The notes under the pieces were generated by a model. The model saw only the letters and a list, made by a program, of their open reading frames with translations. It did no database searches and was not told the DNA's origin. From contig JAHPZE010000003.1 of the NCBI GenBank assembly GCA_019058365.1, positions 1 through 64,000 of the forward strand: 64,000 nucleotides of DNA, read 5' to 3'. Of the stretch, positions 5,385 through 59,603 are shown one piece after another (the stretch's first letter is position 1; each line of letters opens with the position of its first letter). The DNA is from Promethearchaeota archaeon. GTDB lineage: Archaea > Asgardarchaeota > Lokiarchaeia > Sigyniarchaeales > SOKP01. Position numbers and translations under genes: made by a program.

Positions 5385-7016
5385 TCAGCTCTCTTGTATA
5401 GTATAAATTTTTAAATTTTTAATTTCTCTTTTTAATTCTAAATTTGAGATGATAAAGATTAAATTAAACTTTGATAATTTTTCCTCCATTTCAAAAATTG
5501 GTAAAACTTTTCTGATTGTTCTATAAATGGAACCTCCTTTATCATATTTGCTTAAGATTGATACATTTGAAAAAATAATATTTTCTATTTTGATATTAAG
5601 TTTAATTGAGATATAAAATACCATAATGAAAAATATTTTTTCAGGAGTAGTTAATCCATCAAAATCAACTTTTTCTTTATCATTTCTTATGAATGTAATC
5701 TCAATAAAGAAGTACTTATTATCATCATTTACAATAATTCTAAGCTGAGACTTTATGTTTATTTCTGATAAAAATTTATTTACCAAAGATTCGATCTCGT
5801 AAAGGTTGTTCTCCAATCTTCTAAATTCTTCAAAGGATTCCAAAATATCTTTTTCATTTATTGTGATCATAATTTTTGATTCTTGATTTTTTATTTTTTC
5901 ATCTAACTCCTTTAGTTTTTTAGTGATAGGAGATAAATCATTAGGATTCTGAGGGGTATTGAAATCTTTTGGAAGGATTATTTTATTTAATTCAGTTTCC
6001 GTTTTTTTTAAATCATCTTTAATTTCTTGTGAGGGTTTAAATGATTTCAAATCAATTAAATCAAGATCCTGAACAAATGTATTTCCTTCATCTTTAATTA
6101 TATTTTTAAGTTCAGATTGAAGATTAATTATTCTTTTTTCCTCATTATTTATCAACTCTACCAATTCTTGATAATCTTTTTTATATATTTCAAAAACAAC
6201 GGTTAGTTCTTCTAGTTTAAATTGGGTTTGACTTTTTTTAGACTTTGTTTTAGTAATTTCAAACTGAACCTCTTTTGCTTTCTTTTGAAAATTTTTTATT
6301 TTCTCTGCATTTGTTATCTTGGTGCCAGACTCTGTGATATTATTATTTAATTCCTTTTTTGGTTCTGGGGTGTCTCCAGTCATTTCTCGTGTGATTTTAT
6401 TAATTTGACTAAAATATTGTTTTTTTTGTTTAGTTAATTCTTGAATTTTTGAATTATATTCACTTATTGTTTTTTTAATCTGATTAACTTGGTTTTTCCG
6501 CTGAAAATAATCTTCCTCTAAAAACTTTAATTTTTTTTTATTTATAGTTAAGGATTCATTCAATTTTTTTATTAAATCAGTACTAGCGGTAATTTCACTT
6601 GATTTTTTATACTGTTTTGATAATTCTAATTCTTTTAATAGAGATTCTTTTTTTTTTAAAAGCATATTGTATTTGAGGATTAAAATTAAATTATCTACAA
6701 TTTCATTATATTGAGAAAAGAGGAGTATATTACTAGAAACTATTTTACGATATTCGTGTATAAAATTTATTAGTCTTCTGGATTTCTGCAATTCATGAAA
6801 TTCTTCAGATCCTTCCTGTAAAAACCCAATATATTTTTCTATAGGAATTTTATTTAAATTTTCAGAAATTTCAAGAAACAAATTATTTTTATATTTATTT
6901 AATAGATTCTTTTTTATTTTTCCATTAATTAATGTAAATTTATCTTTAATTGGAACATCTTTTGAGCCAATGGATATAATTAAATTATCTTTTTGAATAA
7001 TTAATACCTTTTTCAT
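5385..7016 (-). CDS. Short SMC/Rad50-like coiled-coil protein with degenerate ATPase head
   Basis: Long coiled coil between globular ends; Q-loop-like GFLQEG; signature-like GLTTPEK followed by a hydrophobic helix; no intact Walker A or B. Confidence 0.5.
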   Translation of the reverse strand: MKKVLIIQKDNLIISIGSKDVPIKDKFTLINGKIKKNLLNKYKNNLFLEISENLNKIPIEKYIGFLQEGSEEFHELQKSRRLINFIHEYRKIVSSNILLFSQYNEIVDNLILILKYNMLLKKKESLLKELELSKQYKKSSEITASTDLIKKLNESLTINKKKLKFLEEDYFQRKNQVNQIKKTISEYNSKIQELTKQKKQYFSQINKITREMTGDTPEPKKELNNNITESGTKITNAEKIKNFQKKAKEVQFEITKTKSKKSQTQFKLEELTVVFEIYKKDYQELVELINNEEKRIINLQSELKNIIKDEGNTFVQDLDLIDLKSFKPSQEIKDDLKKTETELNKIILPKDFNTPQNPNDLSPITKKLKELDEKIKNQESKIMITINEKDILESFEEFRRLENNLYEIESLVNKFLSEINIKSQLRIIVNDDNKYFFIEITFIRNDKEKVDFDGLTTPEKIFFIMVFYISIKLNIKIENIIFSNVSILSKYDKGGSIYRTIRKVLPIFEMEEKLSKFNLIFIISNLELKREIKNLKIYTIQES

Positions 7017-12712: not shown

Positions 12713-13813
12713 TTACTCATCACTACTCATTAATACTAATCTTTCATAATCTAAATTTAATAATTTTAGTTCTTTTTCTGTTATTTTAGAAATTTGTTCA
12801 TTAATCTTTACTAACTCTTTTCGCAACTCAATCAAGGAATTTTGAATATGATTTACTAATCCATCTTGATTAAAAGACACTTTTTCGATAAATTCTAAAT
12901 AACCATATTTTTTGTTTTTACCTGAATAATATTTTTTTAAATCTATTAGTTTATTATTAATTTGTTCAATTTGGAATCTGCACTTTAGCATAGACAACAG
13001 TTGTGAATTCCATTGTGTAAATATGTCATCATTTTTATCAATTTTTTCAAAATTGAACTTTTCTGAGAGTTCTACTTTTTCATCTTTAAGATATTGAATA
13101 ATGTCTTTATTTTCTTCTATAGCGTTATTAATTTTTTTTATTACTAGCTTTAAATTTAATGCGGGTTCAACAATTTTAATATGTCTAGTAATTTTTTCTT
13201 GAATTTCTTTATACTTTTGATAAAATCCTTCAATGGTAATTTCAATTTTAATTGCTTGATATATGTTCCCATATTGATCCAAAATATAATAAAAATCATC
13301 CGATAAGGTATAATCATGTTCACCAATCTCTTTAATTAAGGAATGAATAAGATTACTTTTCTCACACCGAACTCCTTTTAACCTCGTAAGAGCTAAGTTA
13401 AAATTCCTTCTAGTTAAAAATTTAAATTTCTTATTTACTATTAAAAAAAGAGTGTCATCAGGAACTGAGATTATGTCATTCTCAATAGTTATTGTTTCCT
13501 CACCTAACTTAATGATAAAATCATTATCTTTTTGTTTGAATTCTCTCAAACTTCGAATATTTTTAATTAAGCCTAAGTCTATATAAATTTCAATAAATTC
13601 CTCATCCCAAAAATTTACAACGTTGCTTTTATAAATATCATCTAAAACTAATATTCTCTCAAAGGATTCTATAAGATTATCGTTGGTCAAATCTTTAAAT
13701 AAATCATTTCTAATGATATATAGGAAAAGAATTATGTATCTCATATCTACATTATCAAGAATGTTGTCAATAAGGTTTTTATCATCTTCCAATGTTAAAT
13801 TAGTATGTTCCAT
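12713..13813 (-). CDS. Hypothetical protein, possible winged helix plus coiled coil
   Basis: RRNFNLALTRL...YTLSDDF wHTH-like segment followed by long amphipathic helices. Confidence 0.65.
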   Translation of the reverse strand: MEHTNLTLEDDKNLIDNILDNVDMRYIILFLYIIRNDLFKDLTNDNLIESFERILVLDDIYKSNVVNFWDEEFIEIYIDLGLIKNIRSLREFKQKDNDFIIKLGEETITIENDIISVPDDTLFLIVNKKFKFLTRRNFNLALTRLKGVRCEKSNLIHSLIKEIGEHDYTLSDDFYYILDQYGNIYQAIKIEITIEGFYQKYKEIQEKITRHIKIVEPALNLKLVIKKINNAIEENKDIIQYLKDEKVELSEKFNFEKIDKNDDIFTQWNSQLLSMLKCRFQIEQINNKLIDLKKYYSGKNKKYGYLEFIEKVSFNQDGLVNHIQNSLIELRKELVKINEQISKITEKELKLLNLDYERLVLMSSDE

Positions 13814-14012
13814 ACCTAAAATCCACTCATATTTTTTTAAACTGCTAATATATTTCAGTCAAAAAGAGTATTTGAGATAATTAACCATTCCTAAAAAATT
13901 TTACTAAAATTCTTGAAATGTTTTCACATAAAAGCAAAAATATTTTAGCTTTCCTTATCTTTATTCTAAATGATGTTAGATAGATTTATTACATATTTAC
14001 GTAGTGATATTA

Positions 14013-14622
14013 ATGGGAAGAAGAAAACGTAAACAAGTATCACCAAAAAGGGTTAAAAGAGTACCTAAAATTTTCACCTGCCCAGAATGAGTAAATCGGA
14101 TTCCGATTTTTCCTCGAATGCGGTGAAAAAAGCGTCAAAGTAACTGATATTAAAAAGAAGGGTGCTTTTGCAACTGTGAAATGTGGAAATTGTGACTTAA
14201 CAAAAGAAGTATTAGTTAATTCGATTTCAGAACCCGTTGATGCTTTTGGAGATTTTATTGATGTCTATTATGCCGATCAAGAACTACAGAGATTAGAAAA
14301 AAGAATACAAAAATTGAAAGTTGACCACGAATGGGGAGAACTTGCATTAGCCTACTCTATTTTGTCAGATCTTTGTAAAACAAAAGCTGCAATATTGCTA
14401 GATGAAGAAAATGTTAATTTGGATGAAGTAAATGACTGGAAAGCGAAAGCTGAAGAATTTAAACGACTTGAAAAAGACACATTATTGAAACTTGATACTG
14501 AAGAATTAGATCGAGGGGTTCGGACCGATGAAGAATCTTTATTTACCGAAAGTGATACTAAAATAAAAAAGGAAAGAAAAATTGAAGATATTTTTGATGA
14601 TCCTGGATTTTTAGAGTTTTAA
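14013..14622 (+). CDS. elf1: Elf1 transcription elongation factor with helical C-terminal extension; interrupted, exons 14013-14087 and 14119-14622, 192 aa when joined
   Basis: MGRRKRK...PKIFTCPE|CGEKSV...ATVKCGNC...SEPVDAFGDFID matches the Elf1 pattern once 31 nt are removed. Confidence 0.85.
14088..14118 (+). other. Putative BHB-type mRNA intron in elf1
   Basis: Central helix CCAG/CUCG (3 of 4 pairs); two AAU bulges; intron hairpin AAAUCGG/CCGAUUU; exon-exon stem of about 10 bp; AA|U cuts restore the frame. Confidence 0.75.
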
Positions 14623-14647
14623 AATTCTAATAACATTTATAGCAATT

Positions 14648-16390
14648 TCATTGTAATATTCTTTTTTTCATTTTTTCAGGTATATGCTTCCATATTGGTA
14701 ATTTTAATATATAATTGAAAAATTCATTATGATTCATTCCTTTTTTTAATATGAGGTAACTCCAATTTTGAAAGGCTAATCTGTTAAATAGTTTCATTAA
14801 TTTTGTTCCTATAGGATTATATTTTGAAGCTAAAAAACGGGCAAAATAGGCACCAGGTCTTTTAGTTTGAGGAACAGATTCAGGATAAACAGATTCAAAT
14901 AATGGTTTATTAAAAAATTCATATAAAGCTATAATTGGAAGAAGGGTATCTAAGAGTAAACTGATTTTTTTTTTATAATTCTTGTCATCTAAGGAAAGGA
15001 TTGTTAATTCTTTTAATTTTTTTAATGCAAATTTATACTCTCTTTCTTTAAAGAATAACCACATTTTTGCCATTTTATCTCTTAATTTCTCTAATTTATG
15101 CACAACTTCTTCTTCTTCAAAATTAAAATTATGCTTCTGTTCATAATAATTAATAAATGATAATAAAACTGAATTCGCGGACTCTTGTTCATATTTATCG
15201 ATACTTTCTTTTTCTATATTTAAAATTTGTAAAAATTTTCCTCCTTCCTTGGGATTATAGATTGAATGCATATAAATAGGGGTAGTAAATAATAGTTCTC
15301 TAATTTTTTCCAATAATGTCCTATAATGACCATATTTATCTATAATTGGGTATTTCTTTGATAGTTTTTGGGATATCCTCGCAAACTCTTTCGCAGAATG
15401 CTTTGATCTTTCAAATCTAAATTTTAATTTGTCGGTTTTTTTTAATTTGCTTATGAGATTATTTCTTTTTTCTCTGTAGAAATTAATTTTTTGGATTAAT
15501 AATTTATTTACATTCAGTAGCTCTTTAACATAAGAATAGAAATCAATATCATAATTTTTAATGATATCATGATAGGATATTATGGGAAGGGTCAAGATCT
15601 TATTCTTACTGTTTTTTTCAATTCTCATGGCATGATCTCCAATAGAATAATAAAAAGTAGAATTTTGAAGAACTTCATCTAATGAAAAAAAATTACCTAA
15701 TGGTTTTGCTTCATTTTTAAAATATCCGTGTAAAATGGTATCGATTCCTTTATACACATTATCATTATATTCTGATATAATGACAGATTCAAATTCTCCC
15801 GGATGATGCCTTTTAGATTTTAAGCGTTTATTTCCCAAAACAATAGCTTGATTTGCTCTATGGGATACTGTATAGACCCATTTTAGTAATGGATCAAAAA
15901 ATTTTGCAAGTTTAAACTTATAATGATAGAATTCGGGACCAAAGTAAATAGGAAACCCAAAACCTCGTGAGGTTGAAAAAATAAATTGAAAGATATTTCT
16001 GATCTTTTCACCTCTTGAAAATCCAGGGAACTGAAGATGAAGTACAATACGAGGATAAAGTGCTTGTGTACCTAAATGCATCCACGCTTCGAATAGGATA
16101 ATGCTACCTGGAAACTTAACTAAATTATTTTCATTTAAAAATTTGTTATTTAAAGTGTTTAAAACAGTTGGAATACTTAGGACGTTGTCTTTATTATTTT
16201 TAAGTGATTTTAATTGTTCTTCGATTTTAGCTAAGATTAGTGGTTTTATTTTAATTTGGAGAGCTTCTTTCTTTTTATAATAATTATTTATGACTCTCAA
16301 TAAGGATGTCATTTCAAGAATTTGTCTTTGAAGATCATGAGCTACCCTAACCATAATAATTATTGAGGATATTTCTTTTAAGGGATCCAA
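14648..16390 (-). CDS. Hypothetical protein (580 aa)
   Basis: Long ORF; no family recognised. Confidence 0.7.
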   Translation of the reverse strand: MDPLKEISSIIIMVRVAHDLQRQILEMTSLLRVINNYYKKKEALQIKIKPLILAKIEEQLKSLKNNKDNVLSIPTVLNTLNNKFLNENNLVKFPGSIILFEAWMHLGTQALYPRIVLHLQFPGFSRGEKIRNIFQFIFSTSRGFGFPIYFGPEFYHYKFKLAKFFDPLLKWVYTVSHRANQAIVLGNKRLKSKRHHPGEFESVIISEYNDNVYKGIDTILHGYFKNEAKPLGNFFSLDEVLQNSTFYYSIGDHAMRIEKNSKNKILTLPIISYHDIIKNYDIDFYSYVKELLNVNKLLIQKINFYREKRNNLISKLKKTDKLKFRFERSKHSAKEFARISQKLSKKYPIIDKYGHYRTLLEKIRELLFTTPIYMHSIYNPKEGGKFLQILNIEKESIDKYEQESANSVLLSFINYYEQKHNFNFEEEEVVHKLEKLRDKMAKMWLFFKEREYKFALKKLKELTILSLDDKNYKKKISLLLDTLLPIIALYEFFNKPLFESVYPESVPQTKRPGAYFARFLASKYNPIGTKLMKLFNRLAFQNWSYLILKKGMNHNEFFNYILKLPIWKHIPEKMKKRILQ

Positions 16391-16599: not shown

Positions 16600-17043
16600 T
16601 TAACCAGATTGGCTCTTGCGTTTACTAAATAATTCTTTGAGTTCTCCCATAATCGCCCCTCTCAGAGATACGGGACTTGCAGGACGACTTGGTCCAGGAG
16701 CAGATCCCGGTCCTCCGGGTGGCCCTCCAGGTGGAGGGGGAGGGGGTGGAGGACCTCCAGGCGCACGTGGAGCTGCGGGACTTGATGCTACGGGAGCAGT
16801 TACTCCTGGAGCTGCCGCAGATCTTGATTGAAGTGACGTAATTTGACTATTTAAAGAAGTTATCTGGTTTTGTAAATTCGATACTTTATCGTTAACAGAA
16901 CCAAGTGATTGATCAACCAAATCAGGGATACGTAAAACAATTGACATTATTTTTTCAATGATATCGGCTAAAGCATTTAATTTTTCTTCAATTGGTGCTT
17001 TTCGAGTACTATCCAAGAAGCTTGCAAATTCTTCAGCACACAT
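16600..17043 (-). CDS. Coiled-coil plus polyproline protein with C-terminal amphipathic helix
   Basis: Heptad segment, GGPPPPPPPPGGPPGGP, then SLRGAIMGELKELFSKRK. Confidence 0.75.
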   Translation of the reverse strand: MCAEEFASFLDSTRKAPIEEKLNALADIIEKIMSIVLRIPDLVDQSLGSVNDKVSNLQNQITSLNSQITSLQSRSAAAPGVTAPVASSPAAPRAPGGPPPPPPPPGGPPGGPGSAPGPSRPASPVSLRGAIMGELKELFSKRKSQSG

Positions 17044-17169
17044 TTTAACTCTTTAAGTCTAGTAATTTTTTATTTTTTTTAATAAGTTAATAGATTTTTA
17101 TTTAATAAATTTAAGTTTAAGCATTATTATTTTCTGACCAAAATATAAAAAAGGAAAGAAAAGTTGAAT

Positions 17170-17793
17170 CTAGCTTAATTCACCAACAGTATCTTTTAGT
17201 TTAATCCATAACGCGTTAATTTCATCTCTTACTTCAGTAAATTGAGTTATTTTTTTAAGTAATATATCTCGAGCTCTATCAAAATCTCTTTGAACATCAT
17301 TCAATTGTTGGTCGAGGATGTTTAATCTATCACCATCAATTAATTTATTTTTCGCTTTTTCAGCATCTAGTGCTTTTTTTATCACAGCAGTTCTTCTATC
17401 AGCAACTTCTGCTAATGCATCGACAAATTCCTTCTTTTTCTGAACTAAATATTCTTTTTGAACAGCAAGATCTTTAATCGCATTTAAATATTTATTATTA
17501 GCTTTAATATAATCGTCATTTTTTTGGATTATTTCTTTATATAAGTTAACTTCTTCATCTTTAATATTCGATCTATGTTCTCGGGCAAGTGTTTGCATCT
17601 GTTTTAATACATCCCTGAAAGTTCGATTTAACATCTCTCGAACATTATTTGCTTTAGTTAAATTTTCTGCATACTTTTTTTGAGAACCAATAAGCGCACT
17701 CTGCGCTTTAGCCAGTTTCTTAAACTGGGAAACGAGCTCCTTCTCAGACTTTGCTAACTCTAGCTCATCTTGATGCGTAATTATAGGACTCAT
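17170..17793 (-). CDS. All-helical protein, BAR-domain-like
   Basis: 207 aa in about three long helices; RRTAVIKKALDAEKAKNK...VQRDFDRARDILLKKITQFTEVR resembles SNX/Vps5 BAR helices 2-3. Confidence 0.5.
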   Translation of the reverse strand: MSPIITHQDELELAKSEKELVSQFKKLAKAQSALIGSQKKYAENLTKANNVREMLNRTFRDVLKQMQTLAREHRSNIKDEEVNLYKEIIQKNDDYIKANNKYLNAIKDLAVQKEYLVQKKKEFVDALAEVADRRTAVIKKALDAEKAKNKLIDGDRLNILDQQLNDVQRDFDRARDILLKKITQFTEVRDEINALWIKLKDTVGELS

Positions 17794-19269: not shown

Positions 19270-20364
19270 TTAAAGTTTATATCGTAAAATTCCTATTATT
19301 GAACCTAAATTTACCAATTGTTCTCCAGTGATATTCTCTGTACTCATAATATTTATTTCTCCACCAGAATTTTCAACACTGGATATAATTTCTTCTATTT
19401 TTAACTTGTGTTTTTTTGAAGAACCTCTAATTAATAGATCTGCTATTAATAGTTGTTTGATCGCGCCCCTTTCAGAAGCTTTAAACACTTCATCAAGGCC
19501 AATAACAATAAGATCAGCATCGTTAGCAAATTGGGTCATTATATTTTCGATCATCTCAGTTTCTTGAAGAACTTTAATTTTATTTTTAAGTTTTGCTAAC
19601 TTTTTTGATTTTAAGATTTCTCTAATTGCACTTTCAGTACCAGAACTTGCATGAGCCATTTCAATATTACCCTTAAAGTTAAAATTAGGATTCTTTTGAA
19701 GGAATTTAAGAAGGATTTCTTTAGTATTCCCAGGGCCACAAAAAATAAGTAAGTCTATGTTTGTATTTTTAACATTTTCAATTAATACTTTTAATATGTC
19801 GCTAAAGAATTCCTCTAAAGCCTTATTTCGATAAGTTTGTTCATATCTTTTACCAGGGATATTTTTTTTAATAGTAGCAATTCTATTATAGCTAAAATTT
19901 GTAATCAATGTTAAAGTTGCTAAACCCGTTTCAATTGCAGTAATTAACATAATAAAGTTAGCTTCGAACTTGGACGTTTCTTTCAGTCGGGCTACTTCAT
20001 GTTTTAACCAGTTTTCTTTGAATATTGTCAACTTTTGAGATACTTCTATGTTAAAAGTATGATAGGTTCCAAAACTAACAAAATCTTCGGGACCTTCTAA
20101 GATTTTGCCTTTTATTCTTAACCGATTTGAAAATTCATGAAAGGCAACATCTTCAACTTTCAATTTCAATCTCATTAATTTACGTTCACCTTTGGTTCCT
20201 TCTTTAAGAACGACTCTTCTGTGAGTTAGAGTAGTTACCTCATCATCTTTATTAATAATGTTATAAAGAGTCCATAAATCGTAGAGATTTTCAATTTTAA
20301 CAGCGATCTCTCCCTGTTTTTGATTAATATCCAGAATTTTCAAATCCTTAAACTGGCTCCACAC
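19270..20364 (-). CDS. pelA: Pelota ribosome-rescue factor
   Basis: DLWTLYN, LRIKGKI, G.YHT, IPGK and GPG motifs; eRF1-like three-domain layout. Confidence 0.9.
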   Translation of the reverse strand: MWSQFKDLKILDINQKQGEIAVKIENLYDLWTLYNIINKDDEVTTLTHRRVVLKEGTKGERKLMRLKLKVEDVAFHEFSNRLRIKGKILEGPEDFVSFGTYHTFNIEVSQKLTIFKENWLKHEVARLKETSKFEANFIMLITAIETGLATLTLITNFSYNRIATIKKNIPGKRYEQTYRNKALEEFFSDILKVLIENVKNTNIDLLIFCGPGNTKEILLKFLQKNPNFNFKGNIEMAHASSGTESAIREILKSKKLAKLKNKIKVLQETEMIENIMTQFANDADLIVIGLDEVFKASERGAIKQLLIADLLIRGSSKKHKLKIEEIISSVENSGGEINIMSTENITGEQLVNLGSIIGILRYKL

Positions 20365-26063: not shown

Positions 26064-27536
26064 ATGAATGTTAATAAAATTGATGACAACATCTTCGAGA
26101 TTCCTCCAAAAACTTTAATGGTAAGGATTAAAGGAAATATTGAGAAATTTCAGATGAGAGTTCCGGTTAAAATTTATGCGAATGATTATATTTTAGAAAA
26201 AATTAGGTTAGATCGTACCTTAGATCAAATTTGCAATGTTGCATGCTTGCCTGGGATACAGAAACATGCCATTGCTCTTTCAGATGCCCATCAAGGTTAT
26301 GGCTTTTGTATAGGGGGCGTTGCTGGAACTGATGCGGAAAATGGGATGATTTCTCCCGGTGGTGTTGGCTATGATATTAATTGTGGTGTGAGATTACTGA
26401 GAACTAATTTATTTTTTAAAGACATTAAGGTTGTACTTCCAAATCTATTAGATTCAATCTTCAATAATATTCCTTCGGGTTTAGGATCAAAAGGCAAATT
26501 AAACATAAGTTATTCAGATTTAGATAATGTATTAAATAACGGTGTGAATTGGGCATTAGATAATGGATATGCTGATGCAGAAGACCATAAACATTTGGAA
26601 GAGAATGGATGTTTAAAGGATGCAGATGCTAGCTTAGTTTCTCAAAAAGCAAAACAACGTGCAATTAAACAGCTTGGTTCTTTAGGGAGTGGAAATCATT
26701 TTCTTGAAATACAAAAAGTTGATGAGATTTATAATAAGAATATCGCGAAAACCATGGGAATACATGAAAAGAATCAAGTCACTGCTATGGTCCATACAGG
26801 AAGTAGAGCTCTTGGCCATCAAGTATGTACCGATTCTTTGCGTAGTATCGAACAAGCAATGAAAAAATATAATATAAATGTTCCTGATAGAGAATTAGCA
26901 TGTGTTCCAGCAGATAAACCTGAAGCTCAGAATTATTTAAAACAAATGGCTTGTGCAGCTAATTTTGGGTTTACAAATCGTCAATTGATTACTCACTGGT
27001 TAAGAGAATCCTTTCAAAATACCTTTAAAAAGGATATTGACGATTTAGATCTCCATCTAATATATGGTGTCTGCCATAATATTTTAAAAATAGAAGAACA
27101 TGAAATTGATGGAAAAAAAATGAAATTGAATATTCATAGAAAAGGAGCAACAAGAGCTTTTCCCCCAGAACATCCTGATATACCTTCTGAATATAAATCT
27201 ATAGGGCAACCCGTATTAATCCCCGGAACTATGGGATCTGCATCCTATCTCTGTGTGGGTAAAAAGAAGGCTATGGACCTTTCATTTGGTTCTACTGCTC
27301 ATGGTTCTGGGAGAATTATGTCTAGATCTAAAGCTATTAAGAAATACTGGGGAGAGGAAGTCAAAGATAATCTAAGTAAGCAAGGTATTTTGGTGCGAGC
27401 TGCTTCGATGAAAGTAATCGCTGAGGAGGCTCCAGGTGCATATAAAGATATAGATCAAGTTGTTCAAGTTAGTCATGATCTCGGAATCGTTGAAAAAATA
27501 GTGAGATTAGTACCTATAGGTGTAGTAAAGGGATAA
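26064..27536 (+). CDS. rtcB: RNA-splicing ligase RtcB
   Basis: DAHQGYGF, GVGYDINCG, GSGNHFLE, HRKGAT, HGSGR, EEAPGAYK. Confidence 0.97.
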   Translation: MNVNKIDDNIFEIPPKTLMVRIKGNIEKFQMRVPVKIYANDYILEKIRLDRTLDQICNVACLPGIQKHAIALSDAHQGYGFCIGGVAGTDAENGMISPGGVGYDINCGVRLLRTNLFFKDIKVVLPNLLDSIFNNIPSGLGSKGKLNISYSDLDNVLNNGVNWALDNGYADAEDHKHLEENGCLKDADASLVSQKAKQRAIKQLGSLGSGNHFLEIQKVDEIYNKNIAKTMGIHEKNQVTAMVHTGSRALGHQVCTDSLRSIEQAMKKYNINVPDRELACVPADKPEAQNYLKQMACAANFGFTNRQLITHWLRESFQNTFKKDIDDLDLHLIYGVCHNILKIEEHEIDGKKMKLNIHRKGATRAFPPEHPDIPSEYKSIGQPVLIPGTMGSASYLCVGKKKAMDLSFGSTAHGSGRIMSRSKAIKKYWGEEVKDNLSKQGILVRAASMKVIAEEAPGAYKDIDQVVQVSHDLGIVEKIVRLVPIGVVKG

Positions 27537-27566
27537 ATAATTCAACTTTAAAATTGTACATTTGTT

Positions 27567-28004
27567 CTAAATGTCAAATACAATATTTATTTTAACTCCA
27601 TTCTTTTTTTCTTCGATTTTCATAAAAGAATAAGTTATAGCTTTAACTTCAGTGCCTGCTTCATGTTTGTTCGTATTAAATTTTTCTCCTTTTAAATTTG
27701 CTTCTAAACAAAATTTTTCCTGATTATGTTTTATTGGGTGAATTTTAATCTTACTAAAAATAAGCTCCTCCACATCAAATAAATAAAGAAATTCAGTTAA
27801 AAAATCAAATAATAATGCTTCTTTATCTTCTGCTTCGATTATTATGGTTCTTTCAATTTCTGGTGATATTGTTATTAAACTAGGAGTAATTGTTTCCATT
27901 AAACTATAAGCCGTTTGTTCAAAAGCCTCTTCCAAGTTTTTGCCTTTAGCTTCGACAGAAACATCAGCAGTATGATTTAAAAACCTATAACCAGTATTCC
28001 TCAT
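27567..28004 (-). CDS. Archease (RtcB cofactor)
   Basis: HTAD...EVKAITY...VFDI. Confidence 0.95.
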   Translation of the reverse strand: MRNTGYRFLNHTADVSVEAKGKNLEEAFEQTAYSLMETITPSLITISPEIERTIIIEAEDKEALLFDFLTEFLYLFDVEELIFSKIKIHPIKHNQEKFCLEANLKGEKFNTNKHEAGTEVKAITYSFMKIEEKKNGVKINIVFDI

Positions 28005-38550: not shown

Positions 38551-38790
38551 TTATACAATATGTTATTTATTATTATAATTTATTAATTAGGAGAAATGAT
38601 CTCAATTTAAATGCTCTTAGTATAGAAATCAAATATATCATAATATTAAGTTAAATAATATAAGTCTTTAAAATTTAAATTGATTTATCCACGGTTTAAT
38701 TCAATAAGTATTATTATAAAAATTTAGATTTTTCAATGTTTTTCTTTCCATACTTCTACAGATTCAATTCTATTATTTAGAAATATAATG

Positions 38791-38933
38791 TGCAGGAGGT
38801 GGGATTCGAACCCACGAATTTAGGTCGAGGAGATATTTCCTTCGAAGACCTATGTCACTAGAGCCTCAGTAACGCCATAAAAGCACAAAAGTGTAATATT
38901 CTAGCGCCGTAGACCAGGCTTGGCAACTCCTGC
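38791..38933 (-). tRNA. tRNA-Leu(GAG) with two introns: 38900-38871 (position 30/31) and 38846-38819 (variable arm)
   Basis: Acceptor GCAGGAG/CTCCTGC; T-arm GTGGG-TTCGAAT-CCCAC; anticodon arm CTAGA-CTGAGGC-TCTAG after splicing; BHB helices CGCU/GGCG and UAGG/CCUA; 85-nt mature tRNA. Confidence 0.85.
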
Positions 38934-40288: not shown

Positions 40289-40390
40289 AGCCTCTGGGGG
40301 GAATTGAACCCCCGACCTACAGATTACGAATCTTTAGCATTTTCTTCAAAGTGACATTTAATGTTGCTATACCTGCTAAGCCACAGAGGC
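40289..40390 (-). tRNA. tRNA-Thr(CGT) with 29-nt intron (40362-40334, position 28/29)
   Basis: Acceptor GCCTCTG/CAGAGGC; ACAGA-TTCGTAA-TCTGT after splicing; BHB helix AGCA/UGCU with ACA and AAA bulges; 73-nt mature tRNA. Confidence 0.88.
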
Positions 40391-41607: not shown

Positions 41608-41711
41608 GGGCTATTGGCGCAGGCAGGTAGCGCAGCAGGCTTTTAACCTGACATTTAAGGGTATATCTCCCTTAAAAAGAAAGGTCGGGGGTTCAATTCC
41701 CCTATAGCCCG
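41608..41711 (+). tRNA. tRNA-Lys(TTT) with ~30-nt intron near position 43-45
   Basis: GGGCTAT/ATAGCCC acceptor; GCGC D-stem; CAGG-CTTTTAA-CCTG; inserted hairpin TTTAAGGG/CCCTTAAA before GGTC; exact junction ambiguous. Confidence 0.85.
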
Positions 41712-55946: not shown

Positions 55947-58900
55947 TTGGTCTTGGTATCAGATTTAAAACCATTAAAAGATAAAGATACTGAAAAAATT
56001 AGACGTAAATATTTGACAAAATTATTACCACGAGTTTTTAGAACTGAAGGTGATGTAGTACCATTCGATCCAATAAAGATTGAACAAAGTCTTATAAATG
56101 AAACTGCTTTAACCCAAAAATCTGCGGATAAAATTACTGAATTAGTTATCAGGAGGATAATATCTTCTGGGATTAGGTTCTTATCGGGTCCTCATATTAG
56201 AGAAATTGTATGCTCAATATTATCAGAACAACATTTTGAGGACGAGCGAAAAATATATACGAGAATAGGAATGCCATTAATGGATTATGAAGCAATTTTA
56301 GAACATGGAATAGATGAAAATGCAAATCAAGATATGAATCCAGAAAGTATTCATCATTGGGCTGCAAATAGAATATCAGATGAATACGCTTTATTAAGAA
56401 TTTTAGATTCTGAAGAAGCTCATGCTCATTTATACGGTGATATTCATGTACATATGTTAAGATATTTTGATTTAAGACCATTCTGTCAGGAATGGGATCC
56501 ACGTATGATTCTAGAACATGGATTACCTCCTGTCGAGAGTTGGGCACATTGCAGTAGATCAGGACCAGCAGGAAGCTTACGTGTAGCTGTAACTCACCTC
56601 GCCAAGTGGCTTGGAATTATTCAGGGGGAATTCAGCTTACCTTACGAAGAAACTGTGCTAATTGAAGAAAATGGAATTTTATATTGGAGTAAAATTGGAA
56701 AAGTTGTAAATAACAATTTAAATTCCCTTAAAGAAATTTATACGTTTGCATTTAATCCTCGAACATTAAAAATGGAAAAACATCAAATAACTAATGTATG
56801 TAAACATAAATGCAATGAGCCCTTTTTAAAATTTAAACTTGAATATGGGCGTGAAATAACAGTAACAAAACACCATAGCTTATTTACTCTTGATGAGGGT
56901 GAAATTATTCCAATTAAAGGAGCAAATTTAAAAATTGGAGATTATATCGTTATTCCTAAGAAAATCAATTATGAGAATGAATTTCAATTTCTCAATGTTA
57001 TAGAACTAATTAAAAAATATTCTCCAAATGCATCCAAATGGTATATTAGATCAATAAAAAATAAACTTACATCAAAACAAATTGATAAACTGCGAAAGAT
57101 TGACAAATGGGCAAATCAGCACTTATATAATGATTCAATTCCTTTCAATTTCTTTTATGAATTGAATGTTAATCCTTCCATTTATAATCAGATTCAATTA
57201 GGAATAGCTCGAAGTTCTCACAGCATTCCAGCAAAGATCCCAATTACAAATGAGTTATTATTTCTTTTAGGGATTTATGTAGCTGAAGGGTCAGGTTCAT
57301 ATAAACATTTCAGTTTAACACTTGGAGTTCATGAAAAGAATTTAATTAATGAATTAAAACAAGTGTTCTATTCTATATTTAGTGTTGATCTCAAAGATAG
57401 ACATCCCCATAAATCCGTTGATCAATTATCGATAGATAGTGAGCTTTTTAGGGAGCTTTTTGAAAATTTATTTCAAATTGGTCACGGTGCTGCTAATAAG
57501 AGAGTTCCTTTTTTTGTATTCGGTTTAGGAGAAGAGGGTATTCGAAGTTTTATTAGAGGGTATTTTCTTGGTGATGGTTATTGTAGAAATTCATACTTGA
57601 AAAAAGCCCGTGTTAGAAACGAAATTTCTGGAAAAACCGTAAGTAATCAACTAATAGAGGATTTAAATTTCATATTACTTAAAATAGGCATTGTCCCTTC
57701 AATTAATTATAGAGAAAACGGAAATATAATATCGATTTATGGTAAAGAATACTTAGAAATATTTTTAAAATCTTTTAGAGAAAAAGATTTAAAATGGAGG
57801 GTAGAACAAACAGAATTTGATATATCTCCTCTTCCCTTACAAGTTCCGACTAATCATTGCGGATTGCAACAGCATTATGGAAACAATACTAAATTGAATT
57901 ATGTTGAAAGAGGGTCCATTAATCAAAAACAGAGAATTGGAAGAAAAGCTCTGAGAAAAATATTAATGAAGGTTCCAAATAGTTCTTACAAGTCTCAATT
58001 AACAAAATTTTTAAAAAGTGATCTAACTGTTTTAAGAATAAAAGATATAACTGAACTTCCTAAAGAAGAATATGCTTATGATTTTGAAGTAGCTCCTAAA
58101 GGTGAATTAATTGAAAATTTTATTGGTGGTAAAGGATTAATTATTGCTCATAATTCAGGAGGTCAAGGGTATGATTATATAACTACATTTTTAGCCCCAT
58201 ATGCACGTAATCTAAGTGCTAGAGAAATAGAACAATCAATGCAATGCTTAATTTTTGAGACTAATCAAATTTTTGCTGCTAGAGGTGGGCAAGTACCTTT
58301 CACCTCCATCTCATGCACTCCTACTGTACCTGATGGTTTGTTAAATATCCCTTCTATTGGACCTCATGGAAAAGTTGTAGGAAGATATGGAGATTATAAA
58401 GAGGAATGCCTCAGACTATTTGATGCTTTAACTGATGTTTATATTCAAGGTGATCATAATGGAAAACTTTTTGCTTTTCCGAAACATGAGATTAAAATTA
58501 AAAAAGATTGGTTGTACGAATTTGAACCATCTTATTTAAAAGTAATGGAAGAAGTTGCTACCATGGGAACTCCATATTTCCTTAATATGTGCCCTAATTG
58601 GATGCCAGATGAAATCCACAGTCAATGTTGTAGAAAATTTTTAAGGGGTGATAAAATCGTCGAGCAATGCAATTTAGATCCTGAAAAGAGAAAAAAAGTA
58701 AACGTATGGGAAAATTATGTAACAATTGGTTCACTTCAAAGTGTTAGTTTAAATCTTCCTCGGTATGCTTATCTTTCAGAAAATGAATCTGATTATTTCA
58801 ATGTATTAGATGAGAAAATTGAGCTTTCTGCAAGAATTTTATTAAAAAAATGGAAATTAATGGAGAGAAGATTAAAAACAGGGCATTTGCCATTGTGTAG

Positions 58901-59603
58901 TGGTAAAATAAAAGGTAAATCAATCTTCAACTTAAAAGATCAGAATCTTTCAATAGGGTTTACTGGATTAAATGAAGCTGTAAAAAGTCTATCTGGATAT
59001 GAACTTCATGAAGATAATACTGCTTATGAGTTAGGAAAAAAGATTTTAAATTACATCGTTGCTAAATGTAATACTATGACTCAAAGAGACGGGAAGTTTT
59101 ATTCTATATGGGAGCAACCTGCAGAATCTAGTTCTGGACGTTTTGCTAGATTGGATTTAAAACATTTCCCTAAAAAAGCAATAGTGCAATCGTCTGGCAT
59201 TTCTGCTTATTATACTAATTCAGGTCACTTTAGATATGACGCAGATTTACCTTTTTTCGAACGTATAATAAAGCAAGGAGATTTGCATCCAATTATTGAG
59301 GGTGGTGTAATTACTCACATTTGGTTAGGAGAACAAAAGCCAGATCTTTATGGACTTTGGGAACTTACCAAAAACATTTGCCTTAATACAAATACTGCCT
59401 ATTTTGCTTACACAATTGATTTTATTTATTGTCCTTCATGTAGGAAAATGTTTAGAGGGACTCAATTTAATTGTCCGAAATGTAATTCTGAGAATGTAAA
59501 AGTGTATTCAAGAGTTACGGGATATTATAGTGAAGTAAATAGATATAATCCCGGAAAAAAGGCAGAATGGGAAGCTCGTAGACGCGAGCATCTTTTTTAT
59601 TAA
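55947..59603 (+). CDS. nrdD: Anaerobic class III ribonucleotide reductase, intein-containing
   Basis: ATP cone; GDIHVH; SLNLPR; PAES; YYTNS; C-terminal CPSC..CPKC and YSRVTGYY glycyl-radical motif. Confidence 0.93.
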   Translation: MVLVSDLKPLKDKDTEKIRRKYLTKLLPRVFRTEGDVVPFDPIKIEQSLINETALTQKSADKITELVIRRIISSGIRFLSGPHIREIVCSILSEQHFEDERKIYTRIGMPLMDYEAILEHGIDENANQDMNPESIHHWAANRISDEYALLRILDSEEAHAHLYGDIHVHMLRYFDLRPFCQEWDPRMILEHGLPPVESWAHCSRSGPAGSLRVAVTHLAKWLGIIQGEFSLPYEETVLIEENGILYWSKIGKVVNNNLNSLKEIYTFAFNPRTLKMEKHQITNVCKHKCNEPFLKFKLEYGREITVTKHHSLFTLDEGEIIPIKGANLKIGDYIVIPKKINYENEFQFLNVIELIKKYSPNASKWYIRSIKNKLTSKQIDKLRKIDKWANQHLYNDSIPFNFFYELNVNPSIYNQIQLGIARSSHSIPAKIPITNELLFLLGIYVAEGSGSYKHFSLTLGVHEKNLINELKQVFYSIFSVDLKDRHPHKSVDQLSIDSELFRELFENLFQIGHGAANKRVPFFVFGLGEEGIRSFIRGYFLGDGYCRNSYLKKARVRNEISGKTVSNQLIEDLNFILLKIGIVPSINYRENGNIISIYGKEYLEIFLKSFREKDLKWRVEQTEFDISPLPLQVPTNHCGLQQHYGNNTKLNYVERGSINQKQRIGRKALRKILMKVPNSSYKSQLTKFLKSDLTVLRIKDITELPKEEYAYDFEVAPKGELIENFIGGKGLIIAHNSGGQGYDYITTFLAPYARNLSAREIEQSMQCLIFETNQIFAARGGQVPFTSISCTPTVPDGLLNIPSIGPHGKVVGRYGDYKEECLRLFDALTDVYIQGDHNGKLFAFPKHEIKIKKDWLYEFEPSYLKVMEEVATMGTPYFLNMCPNWMPDEIHSQCCRKFLRGDKIVEQCNLDPEKRKKVNVWENYVTIGSLQSVSLNLPRYAYLSENESDYFNVLDEKIELSARILLKKWKLMERRLKTGHLPLCSGKIKGKSIFNLKDQNLSIGFTGLNEAVKSLSGYELHEDNTAYELGKKILNYIVAKCNTMTQRDGKFYSIWEQPAESSSGRFARLDLKHFPKKAIVQSSGISAYYTNSGHFRYDADLPFFERIIKQGDLHPIIEGGVITHIWLGEQKPDLYGLWELTKNICLNTNTAYFAYTIDFIYCPSCRKMFRGTQFNCPKCNSENVKVYSRVTGYYSEVNRYNPGKKAEWEARRREHLFY
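56634..58154 (+). mobile_element. Intein with LAGLIDADG homing endonuclease (507 aa)
   Basis: Starts at SLPYEE; block B VT..HS; LLGIYVAEGS and FIRGYFLGDG; YDFEV...ENF...IAHN followed by +1 Ser (SGGQG). Confidence 0.92.

What the first reader, a model, noticed from the sequence alone, without database searches (positions are those of the whole stretch)
14013..14622. Candidate bulge-helix-bulge mRNA intron interrupting elf1
Seen in sequence: Elf1 starts at ATG 14013 (MGRRKRK...FTCPE), meets TGA at 14088 and resumes in another frame at 14119 (CGEKSV...KCGNC). Deleting 14088-14118 (31 nt, phase 0) restores the CPEC zinc knuckle exactly. The RNA can fold as follows: exon stem 14071-14081 with 14120-14129 (about 10 bp, one bulged C), central helix CCAG/CUCG (one C-C mismatch), two 3-nt AAU bulges, and an intron stem of about 10 bp. 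Cutting after the second bulge nucleotide on each strand, the EndA rule, gives exactly the frame-restoring junction. Established: archaeal EndA cuts BHB motifs, RtcB ligates the ends, and the well-known archaeal mRNA intron is in crenarchaeal cbf5. Inference: this is an endonuclease-spliced pre-mRNA intron in a transcription-factor gene of an Asgard archaeon, reminiscent of HAC1/XBP1-type splicing. Unspliced mRNA would give only a 25-aa peptide, so splicing could act as an on/off switch. I do not know of an elf1 intron having been described, but cannot check.
Basis: partly seen in the sequence, partly recalled or inferred. Interest (0 to 1): 0.93.

Follow-up and report, generated by a model that had tools for sequence, protein, structure and literature searches.

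The report
tRNA-type intron splitting Asgard elf1
The gene for transcription factor Elf1 in this Asgard archaeon is broken by a 31-base insert shaped like the introns archaea cut out of tRNAs; about 40 related species carry such an insert at exactly the same spot, so the mRNA is very probably spliced, which papers document inside an archaeal coding sequence for only one other gene (cbf5).

Summary
Observation confirmed. In this Lokiarchaeia (Loki-b32 genus) genome, elf1 (14013-14622) carries a 31-nt insert (14088-14118) between the two Cys of its first zinc knuckle. Removing it gives the 192-aa protein of intron-less kin.

About 41 species in 4 genera have a 28-32-nt insert at the same junction; about 80 kin lack it precisely. 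Insert sequences diverge but the bulge-helix-bulge (BHB) fold covaries (92% of cells paired, 10 compensatory pairs) and fits only at the frame-restoring register (39/40, against 0/40 at ten shifted registers). Exon codons in the stem are constrained only where the intron is present; both exons show dN/dS about 0.08. The GAATG repeat occurs in only 15/40, so scar, assembly error and ribosome hopping are disfavoured.

The genome encodes an (alpha-beta)2 EndA with the broad-specificity loop, RtcB and archease, and similar introns in at least four more genes.

No spliced RNA was found, so splicing is inferred (about 0.9). The on/off-switch and HAC1 reading is unsupported; repeated gain and loss suggest a tolerated, mobile intron. 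Papers searched report only cbf5 (plus one 5' UTR). This scan noted the same elf1 intron before in other genomes.

The parts
14013..14087 (+). elf1 exon 1 (25 codons: basic tail, first Cys of the CxxC knuckle)
   Evidence: Pfam PF05129 positions 1-26; dN/dS 0.079 among intron-bearing species
14088..14118 (+). 31-nt phase-0 BHB intron; begins with an in-frame TGA and shifts the frame by +1
14119..14622 (+). elf1 exon 2 (167 codons plus stop: second Cys, second CxxC, acidic helical extension); gene callers truncate it to a 148-aa ORF from GTG 14176
   Evidence: dN/dS 0.077
14071..14081 (+). 5' strand of the exon-exon (outer) stem; C14078 bulged
   Evidence: (helix 1, 97.8% paired)
14082..14085 (+). 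central helix, exon strand (CCAG)
   Evidence: helix 2; two pairs change on both sides
14086..14088 (+). 5' bulge (AAU); predicted cut between 14087 and 14088
   Evidence: (first base A in 40/40)
14089..14112 (+). intron hairpin (10 bp, 3-nt loop)
   Evidence: helices 3 and 4; all 8 counted pairs show double changes
14113..14116 (+). central helix, intron strand (CUCG)
14117..14119 (+). 3' bulge (AAU); predicted cut between 14118 and 14119
   Evidence: (first base A in 40/40)
14120..14129 (+). 3' strand of the exon-exon stem
26064..27536 (+). rtcB, the RNA ligase expected to join the exons (only copy found in the genome)
   Evidence: PF01139, E 3e-170
27567..28004 (-). archease, the RtcB activator, convergent with rtcB
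   Evidence: PF01951, E 7e-44

Best explanation
The insert is a true mRNA intron of the archaeal tRNA type. The elf1 pre-mRNA folds so that exon 1, the intron and exon 2 form a relaxed bulge-helix-bulge (fold and conservation shown). The heterotetrameric splicing endonuclease EndA, whose alpha subunit carries the loop that allows relaxed motifs outside tRNAs, cuts after the second base of each bulge (inferred from the cbf5 and tRNA rule). RtcB with archease joins the exons into a 192-codon ORF with an intact four-Cys zinc ribbon (inferred). The intron is most likely a tolerated passenger, not a switch. It persists because only exact removal from the zinc knuckle is harmless. It has been lost precisely and regained many times, some exchanges apparently moving it with about 15-30 nt of exon 1 by DNA recombination (inferred from flank differences). 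It is one of several such mini-introns in this genome.
For: (1) The same-junction insert is complete in 40 species of 4 genera (19 g1, 16 g28, 4 g22, 1 g27) plus one cut by a contig end; 28-32 nt; every one breaks the reading frame by a stop or frameshift. More copies occur in metagenome contigs. (2) Covariation over 37 distinct rows: 92% of cells paired (shuffles 81%, slid controls 43-49%), 10 pairs and 81 cells with double changes, covariation score 0.299 against 0.125. (3) A BHB passes in 39/40 species at the protein-defined junction and in 0/40 at each of ten shifted registers. (4) The outer stem is stronger in intron-bearing genes (median score -17.3 against -8.8; within genus g1 -17.4 against -10.5). 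Among close pairs, exon sites next to the junction differ at 2.2% against 5.8% elsewhere when both carry the intron, and 7.5% against 7.1% when neither does. (5) Both exons are under purifying selection (dN/dS about 0.08) with no other lesion; spliced length 192-194 aa throughout; many carriers show only this one Elf1 match. (6) Machinery present: EndA alpha aligns to A. pernix EndA (E 1e-35) across the crenarchaeal-specific loop with its Lys, and keeps the catalytic Tyr/His/Lys region; a second subunit lacks the His; RtcB and archease are present. PMC5829648 reports Asgard EndA as (alpha-beta)2 with loop L1. (7) A blind genome scan ranked elf1 second, behind an intron in the DxHxxG motif of the single-copy methylmalonyl-CoA mutase small subunit (5 species, covarying) and ahead of one in an FAD-linked oxidase (13 species); carB and three uL11 inserts also fit.
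Against: No spliced RNA, excised circle or junction peptide could be examined. The exact spliced junction was not found in metagenome contigs, and no intron-less contig was more than 95.6% identical to an intron-bearing one. The central helix is imperfect in 33 of 40 species (2 of 4 pairs in one) and the BHB is usually not the predicted minimum-energy fold. The species are related, so the statistics overstate independence. This genome has a divergent Elf1-like paralogue on contig C41. PMC2738675 notes that cbf5 introns were once confused with frameshifting, so that class of rival is real.
Confidence: 0.9

Rival explanations
1. Translational bypassing (T4 gene 60 style): the ribosome leaves at codon GAA before the stop and hairpin and lands on the matching GAA 31 nt later, so no RNA is cut.
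For: In this genome a GAA codon is followed at once by TGA, a hairpin and a second GAA. Matched take-off and landing triplets occur in 15 of 40 species.
Against: 25 of 40 have unmatched triplets and 19 have no stop right after the take-off codon. Bypassing does not predict a conserved exon-exon stem or a covarying 4-bp helix at one register. The mutase, carB and one uL11 insert split a codon.
Confidence: 0.03
2. Spliced, and regulated: EndA or RtcB capacity sets Elf1 level, an archaeal counterpart of the HAC1/XBP1 switch. This adds to the best explanation and does not exclude it.
For: Unspliced mRNA yields a 25-aa peptide; the BHB is suboptimal and could be cut slowly. Yokobori et al. proposed a negative-regulator role for the cbf5 intron (PMC2738675).
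Against: The intron is absent from about 80 kin and changes state 13-17 times on the tree, with sister species at 95.6% exon identity differing. Similar introns sit in unrelated metabolic and ribosomal genes. No regulatory feature was seen.
Confidence: 0.12
3. Insertion scar, pseudogene or assembly error: elf1 is dead in carriers and a paralogue covers for it.
For: A 5-nt direct repeat flanks the insert here; an Elf1-like paralogue exists on C41.
Against: The repeat is present in only 15/40 and is 0 nt in 8. An independent contig 98.7% identical to the window has the identical insert. dN/dS is about 0.08 in both exons with no second lesion in any carrier. Compensatory changes occur in the insert.
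Confidence: 0.02
4. Split gene: exon 2 is translated alone from an internal start (GTG 14176, or an ATG inside some inserts), with or without the 25-aa peptide.
For: 16 of 40 inserts hold an ATG in frame with exon 2; databases list 148-175-aa truncated products.
Against: 24 of 40, including this genome, have no such ATG; where present it mostly forms the strand that pairs with exon CCAA. The product would lack the first Cys of the zinc ribbon and the basic tail. It does not explain the stems.
Confidence: 0.03

Closest known systems
cbf5 pre-mRNA intron of Desulfurococcales and Sulfolobales (Watanabe 2002; Yokobori 2009, PMC2738675)
   Same: Short (16-44 nt there, 28-32 here), often relaxed BHB, cut after bulge base 2, sits in an essential motif (catalytic Asp codon there, zinc knuckle here), variable intron sequence, lineage-specific precise absence, host with hetero-oligomeric EndA.
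   Different: Asgard lineage; transcription factor gene; phase 0; far more state changes (13-17 within one family); signs of exchange with flanking exon; several other genes in the same genome carry such introns, while this genome's cbf5 reads through GTLDP without one. Splicing of cbf5 was shown by cDNA and cleavage; here it is not.
HVO_1309 5' UTR intron of Haloferax volcanii (Schwarz 2020, PMC7714728)
   Same: BHB intron in an mRNA, cut by EndA.
   Different: 46 nt, in the untranslated leader; does not interrupt a coding sequence.
Non-canonical tRNA introns of Asgard archaea (PMC11291895; bioRxiv 10.64898/2026.10.13.758758)
   Same: Same motif and presumed enzymes, similar size to this window's tRNA introns (28-30 nt), repeated gain and turnover, route of arrival unknown.
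   Different: tRNA genes only; the preprint never mentions mRNA (0 occurrences) and states that none of its newly identified inserts has been shown spliced in an Asgard cell. The elf1 insert has no significant match elsewhere in its genome.
HAC1/XBP1 unconventional splicing (own knowledge)
   Same: Non-spliceosomal removal of an intron from a transcription-factor mRNA; the 26-nt XBP1 intron shifts the frame and is ligated by RtcB.
   Different: Cut by Ire1 at two stem-loops, under stress control; no BHB. No sign of regulation here.
T4 gene 60 translational bypass (own knowledge)
   Same: Matched codons around a stop and hairpin in this one genome.
   Different: Matched codons are not conserved (15/40); a conserved exon-exon stem and central helix are not features of bypassing.

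Membership tests
Archaeal EndA-spliced BHB mRNA intron (cbf5 type) | Two 3-nt bulges on opposite strands around a 4-bp helix (strict or relaxed), flanked by stems | tested here: met
   Relaxed form here (3 of 4 pairs); 4/4 in 7 species, 3/4 in 32, 2/4 in 1; covariation
Archaeal EndA-spliced BHB mRNA intron (cbf5 type) | Cuts after bulge base 2 restore the conserved protein | tested here: met
   39/40 at register 0, 0/40 at ten other registers
Archaeal EndA-spliced BHB mRNA intron (cbf5 type) | Orthologues without the insert are precisely intron-less; host gene under selection | tested here: met
   58 intron-less sequences read directly; dN/dS 0.08
Archaeal EndA-spliced BHB mRNA intron (cbf5 type) | Host encodes broad-specificity (alpha-beta)2 EndA and an RNA ligase | tested here: met
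Archaeal EndA-spliced BHB mRNA intron (cbf5 type) | Spliced mRNA or cleavage by EndA demonstrated | not testable with these tools
   No RNA reads available; search of DNA contigs for the spliced junction found none
Translational bypass element (T4 gene 60 type) | Matched take-off and landing codons with a stop after take-off | tested here: not met
   Matched in 15/40; stop directly after in 21/40
Insertion-sequence scar | Target-site duplication and decay of the host gene | tested here: not met
   Repeat length 0-5 nt, 0 in 8 species; no decay
HAC1/XBP1-type regulated intron | Ire1-type cleavage loops and condition-dependent splicing | not tested
   No Ire1 search was run and no expression data exist; the fold seen is a BHB
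Mobile archaeal intron with homing endonuclease | Intron-encoded or adjacent endonuclease; co-conversion of flanks | tested here: inconclusive
   No ORF fits in 31 nt and no LAGLIDADG_3 match lies near elf1 (three elsewhere, one in an nrdD intein). Flank differences are raised in 6 non-independent intron/no-intron pairs, 12.2% against 6.6%

The most novel reading that the evidence does not exclude
Marine-sediment Lokiarchaeia run a genome-wide, non-spliceosomal mRNA splicing system: a shifting set of about 30-nt BHB mini-introns in conserved motifs of many protein genes (here elf1, mutase small subunit, FAD oxidase, carB, uL11 three times), spliced by EndA and RtcB and spreading between species by DNA exchange with flanking exon. 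Intron-interrupted protein genes would then be routine in a lineage close to eukaryotes, independent of group II introns.
Probability: 0.75. Interest if true: 0.9.

Novelty: new member of a known kind. Interest (0 to 1): 0.8.

Why it matters
Papers I could search document endonuclease splicing inside an archaeal coding sequence for one gene only, cbf5 (PMC7714728 says so as of 2020; PMC2738675 says others had been predicted but not confirmed). A second, well-sampled case in Asgard archaea, with dozens of natural variants and intron-less sister species, makes three open questions testable: how BHB introns arrive and are lost, whether EndA routinely processes mRNA, and whether close relatives of eukaryotes already coped with interrupted protein genes. 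It also matters for annotation: public databases hold this gene as 148-175-aa fragments, some named hypothetical, so Elf1 and other markers can be missed or truncated in Asgard comparative genomics.

Tried and rejected
Search for the exact spliced junction in metagenome contigs: none; the 59 further loci held no intron-less twin of a carrier. Cluster members of the protein: none equals the spliced product of this genome. Rfam over 13800-14700: no match. Promoter and terminator scan: nothing above chance. BLAST of the inserts against the genome for a tRNA-intron or mobile donor: only short AT-rich chance hits. Reverse transcriptase (PF00078) in this genome: not found. A phylum-wide pattern search was too permissive to read, so the range outside Lokiarchaeia is untested; inside the class, inserts were found in one family only. 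Protein search in G114, G118, G120, G150, G006 returned nothing, so their elf1 state is unresolved. My genome scan is conservative: below the top hits its counts equal the shifted-register null, and it missed the uL11 introns and mis-registered carB. Motif searches for the EF-1alpha and Rpo1N introns noted by others did not locate them, and the one radA stretch printed (contig C12, about 290 codons) was unbroken, so those notes are untested. Literature searches for Asgard + intron + elf1 gave 0 papers; other searches gave no Asgard mRNA intron. The library lacks most subscription journals.

Full report
Observation. An ATG at 14013 opens MGRRKRK...FTCPE, TGA follows at 14088, and the Elf1 sequence resumes at 14119 in the next frame. 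Pfam PF05129 matches exon 1 at model positions 1-26 and exon 2 at 28-78. Removing 14088-14118 gives 192 aa. The RNA folds better than shuffles (z -2.96). The proposed pairs are all possible, but the strict BHB conformer lies about 3.2 kcal/mol above the predicted minimum and its central helix has one C-C mismatch. Because a 5-nt repeat flanks the insert here, six cut registers give the same product, so this genome alone cannot fix the cut site.

Organism. Close relatives carry Promethearchaeota (Lokiarchaeia) record titles; the isolate Loki_b32 is in the same genus.

Relatives. DNA and family searches over the genus and class and the fetched loci show an insert at the identical junction, after the CPx codon and before the second Cys, in 40 species with complete inserts (19 in this genus, 16, 4 and 1 in three other genera of the family) and one more cut by a contig end. 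Lengths are 28, 30, 31 and 32 nt; the 30-nt ones hold an in-frame stop and the rest shift the frame. Fifty-eight intron-less genes were read directly and about 80 are implied by uninterrupted matches. Other families of the class show none in the genomes searched. An independent contig 98.7% identical to the window has the same insert, which excludes assembly error.

Structure is what is conserved. The 31-nt inserts of this genus average 70% identity. On an alignment of 37 distinct rows the named structure has 92% of cells paired, against 81% in shuffles and 43-49% in slid controls; 10 pairs change on both sides, including two of the central helix and all eight of the intron stem. Both bulges begin with A in 40 of 40. 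A BHB test passes in 39 of 40 species at the protein-defined junction and in none at ten shifted registers. The exon-exon stem is stronger where the intron is present, and among close pairs exon sites beside the junction differ less than the rest of the gene only when both genes carry the intron (2.2% against 5.8%; intron-less pairs 7.5% against 7.1%). These species are kin, so the P values overstate the case, but all contrasts point the same way.

The gene is alive. dN/dS is 0.079 for exon 1 and 0.077 for exon 2 among carriers (0.043 and 0.061 in intron-less kin), and every complete carrier gives 192-194 aa with no second lesion. A 25-codon exon ending in a stop would not be kept this way unless it were joined to exon 2.

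Rivals. The terminal repeat is 5 nt in 15 species and absent in 8; matched take-off and landing triplets occur in 15 of 40; an in-frame ATG lies within 16 of 40 inserts. Scar, ribosome bypass and split-gene readings therefore each fit a minority, while the BHB fits nearly all.

Machinery. The genome has two EndA-family genes. One aligns to A. pernix EndA alpha (E 1e-35) across the crenarchaeal-specific loop, with its Lys and the catalytic Tyr, His and Lys region; the other lacks the His and is the likely beta subunit. PMC5829648 reports this type for Asgard archaea and ties the loop to cleavage of relaxed motifs. rtcB and archease lie side by side 12 kb from elf1 in this window. tRNA genes in the window carry 28-30-nt introns with 4-bp central helices at unusual positions.

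More mRNA introns. A blind scan for BHB folds whose removal joins two reading frames ranked three sites at the top. First, a 26-nt phase-1 insert in the DxHxxG motif of the single-copy methylmalonyl-CoA mutase small subunit, inside an intact mutase-meaB cluster; four other species have covarying 26-28-nt inserts there and about 90 have none. Second, elf1. Third, a 32-nt insert in an FAD-linked oxidase, in 13 of 27 loci read, where carriers all use an AGC Ser codon that pairs in the stem. A 30-nt insert with a stop in single-copy carB has a perfect central helix but was seen only in this genome, with 40 congeners lacking it. Three inserts of 37, 36 and 28 nt in uL11, first noted by another reader, were confirmed at the stated positions. 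The genome's cbf5 has no intron at the crenarchaeal site.

History. On a tree of spliced elf1 sequences without the junction flanks, presence or absence needs 17 changes, at least 13 forced by well-supported branches. This is a gene tree with incomplete sampling of intron-less genera. Sister species at 95.6% exon identity differ in state. In some such pairs differences cluster in the 16-30 nt upstream of the junction and the carrier's flank resembles distant carriers, as expected if the intron moved with flanking DNA; in another the intron-less gene keeps a stem-compatible flank, as expected for precise loss (six pairs, not independent). No reverse transcriptase and no adjacent homing endonuclease were found, so the route is open.

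Mechanism. Shown: the interruption, the conserved and covarying relaxed BHB at one register, selection on both exons, presence of the enzymes. Inferred: cleavage by EndA after bulge base 2, ligation by RtcB, translation of 192-aa Elf1. I put this at 0.9. A regulatory role is possible but unsupported (0.12).

Comparison with the literature. The element meets every testable feature of the cbf5-type intron (PMC2738675). PMC7714728 (2020) names cbf5 as the only other mRNA case beside the HVO_1309 5' UTR; PMC2738675 says introns in other protein genes were predicted but not confirmed. Asgard work covers tRNA introns only. No paper links elf1, Asgard and introns. It is thus a new member of a known but nearly one-gene class, in a new lineage and as part of a multi-gene set. 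Earlier notes of this scan report the same elf1 intron in other genomes and similar introns in many archaeal genes; these are unchecked AI notes and were not counted as evidence.

Verdict. Real and very probably spliced; novelty: new member of a known kind; interest 0.8.

Noticed in passing
G000:C6, minus strand, first intron base 17691 (L231, L235): 26-nt phase-1 BHB insert with a 4/4 central helix in the cobalamin-binding motif of the single-copy methylmalonyl-CoA mutase small subunit; covarying copies in G067, G026, G076, G020.
   Followed up: yes
G000:C33:20661-20692 (+) (L234, L241): 32-nt BHB insert in an FAD-linked oxidase gene; present in 13 of 27 loci read, absent precisely in the rest.
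   Followed up: yes
G000:C24, about 5759-5788 (+) (L271): 30-nt insert with in-frame stop in single-copy carB; perfect central helix, relaxed outer junction; seen only in this genome among 41 congeners with the motif.
   Followed up: partly
G000:C34, minus strand, 39280, 39222, 39157: Three inserts (37, 36, 28 nt) in the uL11 N-terminal region; removal restores the conserved sequence. Not compared across species.
   Followed up: partly
window 38790-38933 (-), 40289-40390 (-), 41608-41711 (+): Three tRNA genes with 28-30-nt introns at non-canonical positions, one with two introns; ARAGORN without intron mode finds none and miscalls them with it.
   Followed up: partly
window 26064-28004: rtcB and archease are adjacent and convergent.
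   Followed up: partly
window 55947-59603 (+): Anaerobic ribonucleotide reductase nrdD with an intein carrying a LAGLIDADG domain.
   Followed up: no
G000:C41:30857-31054 (+) (L240): Divergent Elf1-like paralogue (about 150 aa) with both CxxC pairs, no MGRRK tail and a different C-terminal domain.
   Followed up: partly
window 14280-14622: Elf1 of this family has an acidic helical extension of about 110 aa beyond the Pfam core, ending in a conserved acidic-aromatic tail.
   Followed up: no
window 16600-17793 (-): A coiled-coil protein (207 aa) followed by a 147-aa protein with a polyproline run; no clear Pfam match.
   Followed up: no
window 19270-20364 (-): Pelota/eRF1-family protein (three eRF1 domains).
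   Followed up: no
G004 (L011 and L049): One assembly holds both an intron-bearing and an intron-less elf1, far apart on the tree; with 9% contamination this is probably mixed binning.
   Followed up: partly
L108-L110 (G057, G058, G078): Elf1 in another family of the class has two Elf1-domain matches in one ORF (tandem domains).
   Followed up: no
G000:C46:49485-49718 and C35:94711-94959: Two further LAGLIDADG-domain ORFs; possible mobilisers, not examined.
   Followed up: no
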